From a virus, in the IMG/VR virus record IMGVR_UViG_3300010413_000018, positions 64,001-128,000 of that record: a stretch of 64,000 nt of DNA, one strand, 5' to 3'. This document shows positions 40,614-45,152 of the stretch, one piece after another. The notes under the pieces were generated by a model. It was not told where the DNA came from and made no database searches. It saw only the letters and a list, made by a program, of their open reading frames with translations. The position numbers and the translations under genes were made by a program. Position 1 is the stretch's first letter; each line of letters opens with the position of its first letter.

Positions 40614-42350
40614 TTAATCCTCGTTTGATTGTTGGTGTTCTTCTTCCACGGCAGCGCGCATTGTGCGAACTGCTACCTGCCTCAGTGCTTTCACTGCACG
40701 ATCTTGATCTTCCGCAAGAGTGCGCGCTTCGTCTGCCATTATGTCAAGGTCAGAGTTTTCGTCGCGTTCATCAGTTGGATTAGCAAGCTGATGCCCGGCT
40801 AGGGTTAGTTCAAGCGGTTGCTTCGCCCAATCGTACGGAAGCGCTGGGATGGTCATTCCAAGAGCGTCAGCGAGAATGGCGCGCGCTTCGTTGATCGTCA
40901 ACACGTTGACTTTTACCAAACGTTCCATCACTTCAGAAACTATGTCTGGGTCTCGGGTGCGATTACCCGCTGACTTAAACTTCCAAAGCATGATGCCCAG
41001 TTCCGGAAGAATCTTACGATTTATGAATGCGTCAAATTCTTTACGTTCCGGTTCGAACACTTGTTCTTCAGCGAAGCGCAAGCTAGCCATCGCCGTGCTT
41101 TTATTGAAATCTCGTACGTCTCCGCGCATCAAACGTGGTAGCCTAAACGCAGAACCTATCTTATCGATGTTGCGTTCATCGTACGTTTGAAATTGACCGT
41201 CGTTCAGTTGAGTTTCTGTTAATGGTTTAAACTCAATTTTTGGTGCTGCTGCAACGCCTGAAAGTTGCTGTGCATCAGAAACGTTTGCTTCAAGAATTAG
41301 AATTTTGTGAAAGTTGCGTCGACCCTTAATTTGATCGCGAATGTAAGTTTCAATTTTTGAATGGTCATCTTTACCGAGGCGACCACCTTGCACAAGAATA
41401 GCCAACGGCGGAATAGTCTTATTTTCGAAATAGTCGAAGTTGACTTCATCAGCGGCGCGCGATCCTAATGCGGCAAGCAACACGCCTACCCAACGCGGCA
41501 TACCGTAAGCTTCGCCAGGGCGCGGTAGTTTAAAGTGCAGCATTTCAGTAGCCGGCTTATCGTTCTCTGCTTTGTTAGCCTCAAACTCATCCATGTCCTT
41601 GTATACGTTTCCGGTCTTACGCGATACTACCCGAGGGTCGCCAAACTCTTTAAAATAAACCGCCGTTCGGCTAATCACTTGAACGTAGCGCCTAAAAAAG
41701 CGGTATTGTACGATGGTTTCAGTTTGAAGTGGGCCGGACGGAACTTCATCTTCAACAGCGATAGGATCTTTATCTTGCTTGGTTAGGCGAACGTGTGTCG
41801 CCGGCACTAGCAAAGCGCGAGAAACTTTTCCTTCTTTGTTGCGAAGAATCTCCCAATACGCGTTGCCGATTGTCTCAAGATGCTGGCGTGTTTGGCGCCG
41901 TAGCGACGTGAATGACCCTTCCGGATTGATGTACTCTAAAAAGTTGCGTAGCATTAATTCTTCAAACCGCGCGCGCGTCCGTAGGCTTTTCATCTCTTCT
42001 TCAACTTCATCATCAGACGGCATGTTTTCCAGTTCGCCAGTTTTCAGCCACATTGCTTCCCGCACCTTTTCGTGCACTTCGTCGCTTTCAAAGTCAAAGA
42101 CTGGTTCTAAACGGTAGCCTAACCCGTCGATATTGGTCGAGTACGATTCGATATTTTGGTTGAGCGCACTGCTGTTTTCAACAATACGCATCAGCTTTAG
42201 TGGATCGTACGGTGGCATCAGCAAATTGTCGCTTGCTACTAAATCGCGTAGCGTGTTGCTGGTGTCATCCTGTAATGACGCTGGTTGTTCAGTGGCGCCT
42301 GCTTCGGCGACGGTTGCTTTAAAAATTGTAACTTTTTCTCTATTGTCCAT
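40614..42350 (-). CDS. Portal protein (PBSX-like)
   Basis: PPYDP; IGNAYWEILRN; EMLHFK...YGMPRW; YFENKTIP; SAFRLP; VLTINEAR. Confidence 0.92.
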   Translation of the reverse strand: MDNREKVTIFKATVAEAGATEQPASLQDDTSNTLRDLVASDNLLMPPYDPLKLMRIVENSSALNQNIESYSTNIDGLGYRLEPVFDFESDEVHEKVREAMWLKTGELENMPSDDEVEEEMKSLRTRARFEELMLRNFLEYINPEGSFTSLRRQTRQHLETIGNAYWEILRNKEGKVSRALLVPATHVRLTKQDKDPIAVEDEVPSGPLQTETIVQYRFFRRYVQVISRTAVYFKEFGDPRVVSRKTGNVYKDMDEFEANKAENDKPATEMLHFKLPRPGEAYGMPRWVGVLLAALGSRAADEVNFDYFENKTIPPLAILVQGGRLGKDDHSKIETYIRDQIKGRRNFHKILILEANVSDAQQLSGVAAAPKIEFKPLTETQLNDGQFQTYDERNIDKIGSAFRLPRLMRGDVRDFNKSTAMASLRFAEEQVFEPERKEFDAFINRKILPELGIMLWKFKSAGNRTRDPDIVSEVMERLVKVNVLTINEARAILADALGMTIPALPYDWAKQPLELTLAGHQLANPTDERDENSDLDIMADEARTLAEDQDRAVKALRQVAVRTMRAAVEEEHQQSNED

Positions 42351-42351
42351 A

Positions 42352-45105
42352 TTACCCTACCGTTTGGACGCCAATACTATTATGAGCGCCAGCTACTCTA
42401 CGCGCCAGTTCTCGCGCAAACCAGCTCGCCATCAAACGATCGCCTGTGTGTGCTTTTGGATCATAGTACAGCATTTCTTCAATCCATAGCCTAATTTGTG
42501 GGTCGGTTGCTTCTTTACCTTTACTAGGAATAATCCATCGGTGATTAGCAAATTCAGTAGCTAGAGCTTCAATACCGAACGTGGGATTAGCCTTGTTTTT
42601 TCCAGTGGTGAACGGCACTAACGGGATCAATTCTGGCCCTTGCTCTAGCACAAACTGAAGAATAAAGTCTTGGGCATTGTGCACTATAAAATCTTCAACG
42701 GTAAAACTTTCGTCTTCTTCTACAACTAAATTGTATACTGTTTGGTTGCATTGTGTGTAAGGATCTTGTTCGATACTTGGGACTTTAGCCCAAGCATGCC
42801 CATCTTCAAATAGTAGTTGGCCTCTATGGTCTTTGTATCCTTTAATTTTGTCTTGTTCCCACCACGTATGCCAATGTATGCGTTCAACGTCTAAAGTCAT
42901 CTGCTGTTTTAATTTTTTTGTAGCGCTGCGGCTCATTAATAAATTATAAATTTGGTTTCTGTTGATGACTCTACCTTCAATAATTGATGGTTGCGCGCCT
43001 CTTCTACCAATGCGTAAAGATGTTGACAGCTCAGCTTCTGATAAGGTAGTGCGGGCAAACAGCATCCAATTGCGAGAAATGCTAGTTCCGCGCATAACAA
43101 ATGATGGATGATTTGTTGTTTTGTTTATAACACTAATATTACCATCCCCTAATAACCATCCACGTACGATAGCTAGTCTAAGTTCTAACGGCCATCCTAG
43201 CCATTTTATAGGCAAACATTTTTTAGTACCAACCCCACATTTTAACGCATCAGCTAATGCGGCACTGTTGGCAATTACGCGTAGGGTGCTTGGTGTTGAA
43301 CCAACTGTTACGCGTACTTTGCAGCCAATTTTTTCTTGCACAGTTTGTTGTATAAATTGAGCTAGATGTTGTTCTTTACTGGATAAAGTCCATGTTACTT
43401 GGCTTCGTGTCGTATGTCCTTCAGCCATAAATAATCCAAGCACAACCGCAAAGTTTTCATCTATAACAATGCGTTTTGAGCAATCTCTGGTCGTTTTTCT
43501 TAATATAATTTGTGCTTTTTTCTTTGGCCATTTAGGCACCGCAATAGCTGTGTAAGCCGCTTTATCGCGAAATCCATAACTAATCCATTGTGCTTTTCCA
43601 GTTGGGCGATGCTTTCCTACATCTGGGTTTTTATAAGAACCTTTTATCCGTCCAGCTTCACGCATATAAAACCAGTGATTGGGTGTAGTTTCAACTGGTA
43701 GGCAACCTTTTCCTTGAGCAGTTACTTTTGTACGAGATTGGCCTTTTATAAGATCTTTTACTGCTCTCCAGCGATTATTATGGGTCCAAACTAATTCACC
43801 AATTTTAATATTTTCTATAGGCTTATAACCGGTTTTTGTTAGCACTAAGGTACCTTCAGGAAAACAAGAATTGTTCTCGACGCACACTATGCTACCAAAC
43901 CGACGGTGTACGTTTATAATCTTAGCCACTATTTCCGGTCCGGTCCATTTCCCAGCTTGGACTTCTACCACTTGACGAAAGTTGTTCGGATGCAAAAAGA
44001 TAGTGAATATTACCGTTTCATCAGCGCTCGCGTTGCGTTGAACCCCTAAGTCAACACCGGTTAAAAAGCCACCTTCTACACCTTCCGTTAGTTTGGCAAT
44101 TGCTTCGACAATTTCAATACGTTCGTCTACTTCTTCAACTTCGTCCAGCCAACTAGCAGGGGCAAGGTCTGGATGGTAAGCATAAAATTCTGACGCGGTA
44201 GTAGCGGTGCAGCATTTATCCCCAGCCTCTAAACACGCATCCATCCATTCTTGCTTGAATCGCGATTCTGAATCATCCCGCGCTTTACACATCATCTGCC
44301 GCGCAAATTCAGTTGGTCCAAGTTCAACGCGCTTTCTGGTAATACGATCTTGCGGCCAAGCTTCCGGCCATGCAGCGGCACCCTTTGAGTCTATTAACGG
44401 AAATCGCATGGTGTGCCAAACTGCGGTTTGTTTTTCAAATCGGTGCAACATATCGTCCGGATGCCACGCGGTACCAATAATAATCACGCGTGCATGTCGT
44501 GTTAAAGTACCAACTATAGTTGCATGATACCAGTCATACAAATCACGCCGTTGTGACGGATTCATTGTATTTTCAAAGCTTAGAATATCGTCCAAAATGG
44601 CCAAGTCGATACGTGCGCCGAGAACCTGTCCGTGGACACCGATTGCTTGTACTGAAGGATCTCTTTTCGGGCGTTCCGATCGTACGGTAATAGCCGATGA
44701 AGTCCACGGTTCTCCAGGTATCAAACGTGGAAAAATTAACCGTAGCATTTCATTGGTTTCAATATAGTTAGCAATGTTCCGTACGATTTTTTCCGCTTGT
44801 CTGAAAGTGTTCGAGATTATTGCTATTCTTATGTCTGGATTTTTTCCCAGCTCGAATAACGGCCGGCCGACTGCCATTTGGGTCGTTTTACCAGATTCGC
44901 GATGTGCGTAAAGTAGTACTCGGTCGTGAATGTCGCAGGCTTCATGCCATATTTCATGGCATGGTGCTTGAATAACGGTGTTCCCGGAAAACTCATCTTT
45001 CAAAACTAACTCAAGAAAGGTATTAATTTCAGACCGTGCAGTAACTATGCGCGCTTGTCTGGCACGTTCAGCGATTGTGAATTGGTCGGTTTGGTTTTTT
45101 TCCAT
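42352..45105 (-). CDS. terL: Terminase large subunit (intein-containing)
   Basis: Walker A RESGKTT, Walker B LAILDD, IIIGTAWH, nuclease GVDLG and HTGDRLMA; upstream of the portal. The track start is TTG 45111; ATG 45105 is preferred. Confidence 0.93.
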   Translation of the reverse strand: MEKNQTDQFTIAERARQARIVTARSEINTFLELVLKDEFSGNTVIQAPCHEIWHEACDIHDRVLLYAHRESGKTTQMAVGRPLFELGKNPDIRIAIISNTFRQAEKIVRNIANYIETNEMLRLIFPRLIPGEPWTSSAITVRSERPKRDPSVQAIGVHGQVLGARIDLAILDDILSFENTMNPSQRRDLYDWYHATIVGTLTRHARVIIIGTAWHPDDMLHRFEKQTAVWHTMRFPLIDSKGAAAWPEAWPQDRITRKRVELGPTEFARQMMCKARDDSESRFKQEWMDACLEAGDKCCTATTASEFYAYHPDLAPASWLDEVEEVDERIEIVEAIAKLTEGVEGGFLTGVDLGVQRNASADETVIFTIFLHPNNFRQVVEVQAGKWTGPEIVAKIINVHRRFGSIVCVENNSCFPEGTLVLTKTGYKPIENIKIGELVWTHNNRWRAVKDLIKGQSRTKVTAQGKGCLPVETTPNHWFYMREAGRIKGSYKNPDVGKHRPTGKAQWISYGFRDKAAYTAIAVPKWPKKKAQIILRKTTRDCSKRIVIDENFAVVLGLFMAEGHTTRSQVTWTLSSKEQHLAQFIQQTVQEKIGCKVRVTVGSTPSTLRVIANSAALADALKCGVGTKKCLPIKWLGWPLELRLAIVRGWLLGDGNISVINKTTNHPSFVMRGTSISRNWMLFARTTLSEAELSTSLRIGRRGAQPSIIEGRVINRNQIYNLLMSRSATKKLKQQMTLDVERIHWHTWWEQDKIKGYKDHRGQLLFEDGHAWAKVPSIEQDPYTQCNQTVYNLVVEEDESFTVEDFIVHNAQDFILQFVLEQGPELIPLVPFTTGKNKANPTFGIEALATEFANHRWIIPSKGKEATDPQIRLWIEEMLYYDPKAHTGDRLMASWFARELARRVAGAHNSIGVQTVG
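42676..43866 (-). mobile_element. Intein (397 aa) with LAGLIDADG homing endonuclease, in the TerL nuclease domain
   Basis: Block A CFPEGTLV, block B TTPNHWF, LGLFMAEG and RGWLLGDG endonuclease motifs, block F/G VYNLVV...FIVHN. Flanks are VENNS | AQDFIL. Confidence 0.92.
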
Positions 45106-45152
45106 GCTCAATTTTAGCCTGATTTGCCCAGATCTGCTATTTTATCACTATG
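45105..45152. promoter_or_regulatory. Divergent promoter region between terL and the plus-strand cassette
   Basis: Minus strand: TAAAAT-N5-ATG(45105). Plus strand: TGcTATTTT-N6-ATG(45150). No SD on either side. Confidence 0.4.

What the first reader, a model, noticed from the sequence alone, without database searches (positions are those of the whole stretch)
42664..43881. Terminase intein with Ala at +1; the Ser sits at -1 instead
Seen, checked at DNA level: ...GAG AAC AAT TCT | TGT TTT CCT (ENNS|CFP)...GTG CAC AAT | GCC CAA GAC (VHN|AQD). Known: canonical protein splicing needs Cys, Ser or Thr at +1; splicing without it has been reported mainly for bacterial intein-like (BIL) domains, by proposed aminolysis. 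This is a full intein with a homing endonuclease inside the nuclease domain of an essential gene. The rejoined extein reads VENNSAQDF, so the insertion lies one codon downstream of where a canonical Ser+1 insertion would be. Inference: either it splices by a non-canonical route (Asn cyclisation, then attack of the freed Ala amine on the Cys1 thioester), or TerL works as two cleaved fragments.
Basis: partly seen in the sequence, partly recalled or inferred. Interest (0 to 1): 0.78.

Follow-up and report, generated by a model that had tools for sequence, protein, structure and literature searches.

The report
Terminase intein lacking splice nucleophile
The only DNA-packaging (terminase) gene of this 141-kb uncultured phage carries a real, mobile intein followed by alanine instead of the Cys/Ser/Thr that textbook protein splicing needs; the whole old intein clade shares this, so the enzyme must mature by non-textbook chemistry.

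Summary
The TerL ORF (window 42352-45111, minus strand) reads ENNS|CFPEG...FIVHN|AQDF, with a 397-aa HINT plus LAGLIDADG intein three residues after the catalytic Glu of the nuclease domain.

Sequencing error and recent mutation are excluded. Of 41 homologous inteins at this exact site, +1 is Ala in 33, Gly in 1, Ser in 5 and Cys in 2.

On the intein tree the no-nucleophile forms are one clade (SH-aLRT 100, stem 0.59). All lineages outside it are canonical (Cys or Ser at +1). Cys1, the block B His and the terminal His-Asn are invariant within the clade at 48% mean identity.

Ala is also the residue at this position in 83 of 86 empty TerL alleles. The intein is low-GC and sits in an otherwise intein-free TerL lineage, so it is a recent, mobile import.

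One relative, however, does sit one codon upstream and uses a Ser there.

Whether the exteins are joined (BIL-type aminolysis, my preferred reading) or TerL works as two chains cannot be settled in silico.

The scan found this lineage before on other DNA (e1-5893770, e1-5893765). It also found analogous Gln and Met +1 TerL inteins (e1-5356550, e1-5804011). I found no published description.

The parts
42352..45111 (-). T7-type large terminase (TerL) precursor ORF. It is 919 codons from TTG at 45111; the database protein starts at ATG 45105. The stop codon is at 42352-42354.
   Evidence: NCBIfam termin_lrg_T7 E 1.3e-30 and Pfam Terminase_6N. It is the only TerL in the 140,728-bp record. A portal gene follows directly at 40614-42350.
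43867..45111 (-). N-extein: the ATPase domain and the first part of the RNase H-like nuclease domain. It ends ...VCVENNS, with Ser-1 at 43869-43867.
   Evidence: In alignment A1 the nuclease residues D352 and E410 (P0002 numbering) are invariant.
43876..43878 (-). Codon of the invariant catalytic Glu of the nuclease (E412 of the ORF, in VENN), three residues before the intein.
   Evidence: Invariant column E410 in 92 aligned TerLs. The role as metal ligand is inferred from known TerL nuclease structures.
42676..43866 (-). Intein of 397 aa, Cys1 to Asn397: HINT splicing domain with an inserted LAGLIDADG homing endonuclease.
   Evidence: GC is 0.39 and GC3 0.27, against 0.46 and 0.40 in the exteins.
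43864..43866 (-). Cys1 (TGT), the nucleophile for the N-S acyl shift.
   Evidence: Invariant in 36 of 36 clade members.
43672..43686 (-). Block B, T61-P-N63-H64-W65. H64 is invariant. N63 and W65 are diagnostic of the no-nucleophile clade; the canonical relatives vary at both positions (mostly Glu at 63; Pro in the site-B inteins at 65).
43786..43788 (-). Trp27 (in VWTH). It is Trp in 36 of 36 clade members and Leu or Met in all 10 canonical relatives.
43414..43440 (-). First LAGLIDADG motif, LGLFMAEGH, with the acidic Glu kept.
   Evidence: Glu is present in 31 of 34 clade members that retain the endonuclease.
43138..43167 (-). Second LAGLIDADG motif, VRGWLLGDGN, with the acidic Asp kept.
   Evidence: Asp in 33 of 34.
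42676..42738 (-). Blocks F and G, VYNLVVEEDESFTVEDFIVHN. F:4 is Asn379, and the chain ends with His396-Asn397.
   Evidence: N379, H396 and N397 are invariant in the clade.
42673..42675 (-). Ala+1 (GCC), the first C-extein residue, which has no side-chain nucleophile.
   Evidence: Ala is found at +1 in 33 of 41 inteins at this site and at this position in 83 of 86 empty alleles.
42355..42675 (-). C-extein of 107 aa, AQDFILQF...: the rest of the nuclease domain, including the third invariant acidic residue in GDRLMA.
   Evidence: D889 is invariant in A1. In the model a helix starts at residue 813 (P0002 numbering; Ala+1 is 811), right after the junction.

Best explanation
This is a mobile, class-1-derived intein (HINT domain plus an active-looking LAGLIDADG endonuclease) that this phage's only TerL gene acquired recently. 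It belongs to an old clade that arose once from canonical Cys/Ser+1 inteins at the same TerL site and then lost the +1 nucleophile. The position reverted to Ala, the residue the terminase itself prefers next to its catalytic Glu. Inferred mechanism: Cys1 still makes the N-terminal thioester and Asn397 still cyclises, which cuts the C-terminal junction without a branched intermediate. The freed alpha-amine of Ala+1, held in place by the already folded nuclease domain, then attacks the thioester and forms the VENNS-AQDF peptide bond. This is the route proposed for type A bacterial intein-like domains. Yield may be low, with cleaved by-products, but a phage needs few TerL molecules. Shown here: anatomy, clade-wide conservation, polarity of the change and mobility. 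Inferred: each chemical step and the ligation itself. The 0.45 applies to the ligation chemistry alone; I put about 0.9 on this being a real, functional, mobile lineage lacking the +1 nucleophile.
For: - The junctions and the ORF are intact.
- +1 is Ala in 33, Gly in 1, Ser in 5 and Cys in 2 of 41 inteins at this site. Four further IMG/VR contigs all have Ala.
- On the intein tree, 36 rows (33 Ala, 1 Gly, 2 nested Ser) form one side of a branch with SH-aLRT 100 and length 0.59. All 10 rows on the other side have Cys or Ser at +1.
- Within the clade mean identity is 48% (37-96%), yet C1, H64, N379, H396 and N397 are invariant. The endonuclease acidic residues are kept in at least 31 of 34.
- A 148-aa mini-intein (P0035) that has lost the endonuclease still keeps C1 and HN followed by Ala.
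- On the extein tree the intein is scattered over at least 8 TerL lineages. The window's TerL is nested among 12 intein-free alleles, and its intein is compositionally foreign.
- This is the only TerL in a complete 140.7-kb genome.
- The clade has its own fixed changes in and near the active-site blocks: W27, N63 and W65.
- Ligation without a +1 side chain has precedent in BIL domains (PMC4031507, PMC7664689). The only PDB sequence hit is that BIL, 2LWY.
Against: - No experiment exists for any member.
- Laboratory +1 Ala mutants of canonical inteins give cleavage, not ligation, and BILs give mostly cleaved products (PMC7664689). Efficient ligation is therefore not the default expectation.
- No member is found in a cultured phage or in a GTDB genome, so viability rests on metagenomic abundance and evolutionary persistence.
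- F:4 Asn does not co-vary with +1.
Confidence: 0.45

Rival explanations
1. Cleavage only. The intein cuts both junctions (thioester hydrolysis at Cys1, Asn397 cyclisation) but does not ligate. The nuclease domain, already folded in the precursor, then works as two non-covalently associated chains nicked three residues after the catalytic Glu.
For: This needs the same conserved residues (C1, H64, H396, N397) and is what +1 Ala mutants and BILs mostly do (PMC7664689, PMC4031507). The AF2 precursor folds both extein halves into one nuclease domain with high confidence. It is the easiest evolutionary path, because a single Cys/Ser to Ala change would be tolerated at once if a nick is harmless. 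Other TerL intein lineages without a +1 nucleophile exist, which could mean that TerL tolerates nicks.
Against: The nick would lie beside the metal-binding Glu, in the most conserved motif of the domain. All 86 intein-free relatives inspected read through the site as one continuous chain; I did not search for naturally split genes. The long clade stem with fixed changes in blocks A and B suggests that the chemistry was re-tuned rather than simply decayed.
Confidence: 0.33
2. No processing. The intein stays in TerL as a tolerated inserted domain, and only the homing endonuclease is under selection.
For: Intein termini lie close together, so a loop insertion is geometrically possible. The precursor model is well folded.
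Against: C1, H64 and H396-N397 are invariant over 36 members at 48% identity. They are kept in a mini-intein that has lost the endonuclease, which is not expected if the chemistry were idle. A 45-kDa insert three residues from the catalytic Glu should block the DNA cleft (inference).
Confidence: 0.05
3. Artefact or dead gene. Either a sequencing error at the GCC codon or a recent inactivating mutation, so that this phage copy is defective.
For: It is a single metagenomic assembly and raw reads were not available. The intein is a recent import.
Against: Ala is the clade state in 33 independent assemblies plus 4 IMG/VR contigs, and it is the host consensus. The ORF is intact and the genome is complete.
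Confidence: 0.02
4. Canonical-type splicing through a nucleophile other than the +1 side chain, such as another extein or intein Ser/Thr/Cys or a trans-acting host or phage factor.
For: Class 3 inteins show that alternative internal nucleophiles can evolve (PMC2807308). The clade has unexplained invariant residues.
Against: F:4 is Asn, not Cys, and there is no WCT motif. The +2 to +4 residues (Q-D-F) carry no nucleophile. An ester to a residue other than +1 cannot rearrange into the native peptide bond (established mechanism, PMC4031507).
Confidence: 0.05

Closest known systems
Type A bacterial intein-like (BIL) domains, e.g. Clostridium thermocellum BIL4 (PDB 2LWY; Dassa 2004 and Aranko 2013, as cited in PMC4031507 and PMC7664689)
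   Same: A HINT domain with an N-terminal Cys, a C-terminal His-Asn and no +1 nucleophile. The proposed route is thioester, then Asn cyclisation, then attack by the freed amine. 2LWY is the only PDB chain the intein hits by sequence (E 0.0034 over 75 aa).
   Different: BILs have no homing endonuclease, sit in variable regions of bacterial (often secreted) proteins, are not mobile by homing and give mostly cleaved products. This element carries an endonuclease, homes into the most conserved motif of an essential phage enzyme, and descends from canonical inteins at the same site.
Canonical sister inteins at the same TerL nuclease site (P0031 and P0127 with Cys+1; P0033, P0126 and P0128 with Ser+1; P0024 one codon upstream with Ser+1)
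   Same: They share the host protein, the insertion point and the architecture, are 36-42% identical, and also have Asn at F:4, except P0024, which has Asp.
   Different: They keep a +1 nucleophile. They have Leu or Met instead of W27, varied residues (mostly Glu/Thr, and Ala/Gly/Pro/Lys) where the clade has N63 and W65 in TPNHW, Pro instead of A109, and Ala-[Val/Ala]-His-Asn instead of [Val/Ile]-Val-His-Asn.
Mycobacteriophage TerL inteins (Kelley et al. 2016, PMC5050341; Gosselin et al. 2025, bioRxiv 10.1101/2025.01.02.630785)
   Same: They are mobile inteins with endonucleases in the phage large terminase, sporadically distributed. They have been shown to splice and to cleave empty alleles.
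   Different: All of them lie in the ATPase domain and have canonical +1 residues. Gosselin et al. explicitly treat Ala at +1 as non-permissive for splicing.
VMA-type endonuclease-bearing inteins (PI-SceI, TliVMA; PDB 1VDE, 7QSU)
   Same: They are the best structural matches to the model (Foldseek E about 1e-16): a HINT domain with an inserted LAGLIDADG endonuclease.
   Different: Sequence identity is only about 15%, the +1 residue is a canonical Cys, and the host protein is different.

Membership tests
Intein (class 1) | HINT fold with blocks A, B, F and G, inserted in frame in a conserved site of a host protein | tested here: met
   Pfam Hint_2. AF2 pLDDT 91 with Foldseek matches to TliVMA and PI-SceI. 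Removing the insert restores the ENNAAQDF motif.
Intein (class 1) | N-terminal Cys or Ser, and a C-terminal His-Asn | tested here: met
   C1, H396 and N397 are present in the DNA and invariant in the clade.
Intein (class 1) | Cys, Ser or Thr at the first C-extein position (+1) | tested here: not met
   The codon is GCC (Ala) at 42673-42675. The clade has Ala in 33 and Gly in 1 of 36. Among related inteins elsewhere, 145 of 152 have C, S or T.
Intein (class 1) | Homing endonuclease and a sporadic, horizontally transferred distribution | tested here: met
   LAGLIDADG_3 match with the acidic residues kept. The extein and intein trees conflict. The intein has foreign GC content.
Intein (class 1) | Autocatalytic excision with ligation of the exteins | not testable with these tools
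   This needs expression of the precursor and MS of the products.
Type A bacterial intein-like domain | HINT with N-terminal Cys, C-terminal His-Asn and no +1 nucleophile | tested here: met
Type A bacterial intein-like domain | No endonuclease; located in variable regions of non-essential bacterial proteins; not a homing element | tested here: not met
   It has an endonuclease, lies in the conserved catalytic motif of the only TerL, and is mobile.
Type A bacterial intein-like domain | Sequence or phylogenetic membership | tested here: inconclusive
   The hit to 2LWY is weak (E 0.0034 over 75 aa). On the tree, the nearest rows outside its clade are canonical inteins at the same TerL site.
Class 3 intein | No N-terminal nucleophile, Cys at F:4, WCT motif | tested here: not met
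   Cys1 is present, F:4 is Asn379 and there is no WCT motif.
Class 2 intein | Ala1, with direct attack by Cys+1 | tested here: not met
   Cys1 is present and +1 is Ala.
T7-type large terminase | N-terminal ATPase plus C-terminal RNase H-like nuclease with an acidic triad, next to a portal gene | tested here: met
   NF033889 E 1.3e-30. D352, E410 and D889 are invariant. The portal gene is adjacent. Foldseek matches PhiV-1, T7 and T4 TerL.

The most novel reading that the evidence does not exclude
This clade is a fourth mechanistic class of true, homing inteins. It evolved once from class 1 ancestors, remodelled blocks A and B (W27, N63, W65), and ligates exteins efficiently without any +1 side-chain nucleophile. 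This frees the element to live at, and home into, a site where the host enzyme insists on Ala.
Probability: 0.35. Interest if true: 0.9.

Novelty: new variant of a known kind. Interest (0 to 1): 0.76.

Why it matters
The rule that an intein must be followed by Cys, Ser or Thr is used to define inteins, to filter surveys, and to judge which alleles an intein can invade (for example).

Here an old, diverse and still mobile clade in an essential gene breaks that rule. Canonical sister lineages sit at the same site and provide a natural before-and-after comparison.

If the exteins are ligated, this is a natural scaffold for traceless protein ligation at Ala or Gly junctions, which protein engineers have long wanted. 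If they are not ligated, it shows that a viral packaging nuclease can work as a nicked two-chain enzyme, and that inteins can persist as pure self-cleaving elements.

Either result changes how inteins should be searched for in metagenomes.

Tried and rejected
1. **Block F position 4.** I first thought Asn versus Asp at F:4 co-varies with loss of the +1 nucleophile, because P0024 has Asp. This is rejected: Asn is found in all canonical relatives except P0024.
2. **Alternative splice registers.** Shifting a junction by one residue gives an extein one residue short of the consensus.
3. **A cultured phage or genome carrying the clade,** which would prove viability. tblastn against 50,697 GenBank phages found only unrelated 23%-identical inteins in methyltransferases. 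A peptide-pattern scan of GTDB genomes found nothing. A clade-signature DNA pattern gave 16 hits in GTDB genomes, all of them chance by tblastn.
4. **Literature.** Five full-text searches found no description of natural endonuclease-bearing inteins with a non-nucleophilic +1.
5. **Enrichment of stem-branch changes in the splicing domain.** The count is 5 diagnostic positions in about 155 aa against 3 in about 240 aa of the endonuclease. This is too few to claim anything.
6. **A second TerL copy** that could relieve the constraint. There is none.
Full report
**1. What is in the sequence**

The feature lies on the minus strand, in a single 919-codon ORF at window 42352-45111. The N-terminal 290 residues match T7-type large terminase (NCBIfam NF033889, E 1.3e-30; Pfam Terminase_6N). 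Residues 416-812 match Hint_2 and LAGLIDADG_3 above Pfam's own cut-offs.

- Cys1 is at 43866-43864.
- Asn397 is at 42678-42676.
- Ala+1 is at 42675-42673.

An AlphaFold2 model of the whole precursor, built from a 92-sequence alignment, has mean pLDDT 91. Its best Foldseek matches are endonuclease-bearing VMA inteins (TliVMA, PI-SceI; E about 1e-16) and the PhiV-1, T7 and T4 terminases.

The gene is followed by a portal gene and a Mu-F-like head protein gene. It is the only TerL in a virus record of 140,728 bp rated 100% complete.

**2. Where the intein sits**

Eighty-six intein-free homologues read VENN-x-y-QDFILQF at this point.
- Position x is Ala in 77.
- Position y is Ala in 83 and Ser in 3.

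Removing exactly C1..N397 from the window protein gives VENN-S-A-QDF, which is colinear with that motif. Any other register is one residue short. The intein therefore sits between the two alanines, and its +1 residue is the host's own consensus residue.

The Glu of VENN is one of only ten invariant columns in the TerL alignment. Together with D352 and D889 it forms the nuclease acidic triad. In the model the intein lies between the strand that carries this Glu and the following helix.

**3. Not an error and not a recent mutation**

A word-indexed search and an exhaustive HMMER search of 1.84 billion representatives recovered 41 inteins at this exact site, plus one a codon upstream. The 41 comprise the window's own and 40 others.
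- +1 is Ala in 33, Ser in 5, Cys in 2 and Gly in 1.
- -1 is Ala in 23, Gly in 11, Ser in 5, Gln in 1 and Phe in 1.

Four further IMG/VR contigs found with a clade-signature DNA pattern all read HN|AQD.

As a baseline, the residue after the terminal His-Asn is Cys, Ser or Thr in 145 of 152 other related inteins from the same search.

**4. Polarity of the change**

I built a maximum-likelihood tree of the 46 intein sequences. It was rooted on related inteins from a second TerL site (DRLMA|C...HN|[C/S]WFARE).

All six basal site lineages carry a canonical +1:
- P0127 and P0031 have Cys.
- P0126, P0033 and P0128 have Ser.
- P0024 has Ser and sits one codon upstream.

The other 36 sequences form one clade with SH-aLRT 100 and a stem of 0.59 substitutions per site. 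That clade holds 33 Ala, 1 Gly and 2 nested Ser. Whatever the root, every no-nucleophile intein lies on one side of this branch and only canonical ones lie on the other.

The window's intein is nested inside the clade, in a 6-row set with support 97 (P0003, P0011, P0035, P0005, P0009).

**5. Evidence that the clade is functional and mobile**

- Clade members are on average 48% identical (37-96%). Even so, C1, T28, H29, H64 (block B His), N379, H396 and N397 are invariant.
- The two LAGLIDADG acidic residues are kept in at least 31 of 34 members.
- P0035 is a 148-aa mini-intein that has lost the endonuclease. It still has Cys1 and HN|A. This argues that the splicing-domain chemistry is itself under selection.
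- On a tree of the exteins alone, the no-nucleophile intein needs at least 8 gains or losses. The window's TerL is nested among 12 intein-free alleles, while its intein's closest kin sit in other TerL lineages.
- The intein DNA has GC 0.39 and GC3 0.27, against 0.46 and 0.40 for both exteins. The dip coincides with the intein borders.

This phage therefore acquired the element horizontally and fairly recently. The element evidently spreads among TerL genes that keep Ala at +1.

**6. What changed with the loss**

The following positions are fixed in the clade and different in all or nearly all canonical relatives:
- W27 (36 of 36; Leu or Met elsewhere).
- N63 and W65, which flank the block B His (TPNHW; the relatives vary at both positions, mostly Glu at 63).
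- A109 (Pro elsewhere) and G42.
- [Val/Ile] instead of Ala three residues before the terminal Asn.
- A 2-3 residue insertion before block F.

Block F position 4 is Asn in nearly the whole family, canonical members included, so it does not track the +1 state. Their role is an inference.

**7. Mechanism**

By the established mechanism, without a +1 side chain the block G branched intermediate cannot form (PMC4031507). Three outcomes remain.

(a) *Ligation by aminolysis.* Cys1 forms the thioester, Asn397 cyclises, and the freed Ala+1 amine attacks the thioester. This is the route proposed for type A BIL domains, which do ligate but give mostly cleavage products (PMC4031507, PMC7664689).

(b) *Cleavage only,* with a nicked two-chain nuclease domain.

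(c) *No processing.*

Outcome (c) fits poorly with invariant C1, H64 and HN and with the mini-intein. Outcomes (a) and (b) need the same residues and cannot be separated by sequence.

I favour (a) slightly for three reasons:
- The long stem with fixed active-site-block changes looks like re-tuning.
- All 86 intein-free relatives inspected read through the site as a single chain, though I did not search for split genes.
- A phage needs very few TerL molecules, so a modest yield would suffice.

Outcome (b) is the easier evolutionary path and is what +1 Ala mutants normally do.

A plausible driver, again an inference, is a conflict between the two partners. The enzyme wants Ala beside its catalytic Glu (97% of empty alleles), whereas a canonical intein forces Cys or Ser there.

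**8. Comparison with what is known**

It works like a type A BIL but is not one. It has an endonuclease, homes into a conserved catalytic motif, and descends from canonical inteins. Its only sequence link to BILs is a weak hit to 2LWY (E 0.0034).

It is not class 2 or class 3: Cys1 is present, F:4 is Asn and there is no WCT motif.

Published phage TerL inteins are all in the ATPase domain and have canonical +1 residues (PMC5050341). A 2025 survey explicitly treats Ala at +1 as blocking splicing. Five full-text searches found no description of such inteins. Absence from that library is not proof.

No member occurs in cultured GenBank phages or in GTDB genomes.

**9. Relation to earlier notes of this scan**

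The same lineage was reported before on another genome (e1-5893770 and e1-5893765: ESNG|...HN|AQ, at least 44 relatives). My counts agree with those notes. What I add:
- the polarity of the change, with canonical basal lineages;
- the diagnostic residues;
- the one-codon-shifted relative;
- the mini-intein;
- the evidence of recent import in this phage.

Notes e1-5356550 (Gln+1) and e1-5804011 (Met+1) describe other TerL lineages. I independently saw a lineage reading VKG|C...SHN|[Q/I/L]HP in P0129, P0132, P0137 and P0215. It resembles the Gln case (e1-5356550), though I did not compare the two.

**10. Verdict**

I class it as a new variant of a known kind, with high interest pending a simple expression test.

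Noticed in passing
P0024 (888-aa TerL homologue), junctions VVESN|CLLPGS ... AVHN|SAQHY: A related intein sits exactly one codon upstream of the site used by all the others. It uses a Ser at the first-Ala position as its canonical +1 residue, and it is the only family member with Asp at block F position 4. This looks like an intein that has slid by one codon.
   Followed up: partly
P0129, P0132, P0137, P0215 (multi-intein TerL-like proteins): A second intein lineage without a +1 nucleophile...GVKG|C...[V/I/M]SHN|[Q/I/L]HP[L/V][V/W][I/L]EMDE|C..., followed directly by another intein. It resembles the Gln+1 case reported by the scan on other DNA (e1-5356550), though I did not compare the two.
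   Followed up: partly
P0004, P0036, P0040, P0044: Inteins 26-29% identical to the window's occupy a second nuclease-domain site, GDRLMA|C...AVHN|[C/S]WFARE, just after the third invariant acidic residue. P0004 carries inteins at both sites.
   Followed up: partly
P0051, P0067, P0072, P0081, P0085, P0090, P0098: TerL relatives that have an empty nuclease site carry a different intein in the Walker A loop (ESGK|A.. or ESGK|C.. ... HN|[S/T]). Several begin with Ala, which suggests class 3-like inteins.
   Followed up: no
window 42650-43900: A GC trough (0.37-0.41, against about 0.46 in the flanks) coincides with the intein and marks it as foreign DNA in this genome.
   Followed up: yes
P0122 (963 aa): One clade member has Gly at both -1 and +1 (ENNG|C...VHN|GQDF), so the position tolerates Gly as well as Ala. 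In intein-bearing alleles -1 is Gly in 11 of 41, against 4 of 86 empty alleles. This comparison is not corrected for phylogeny.
   Followed up: partly
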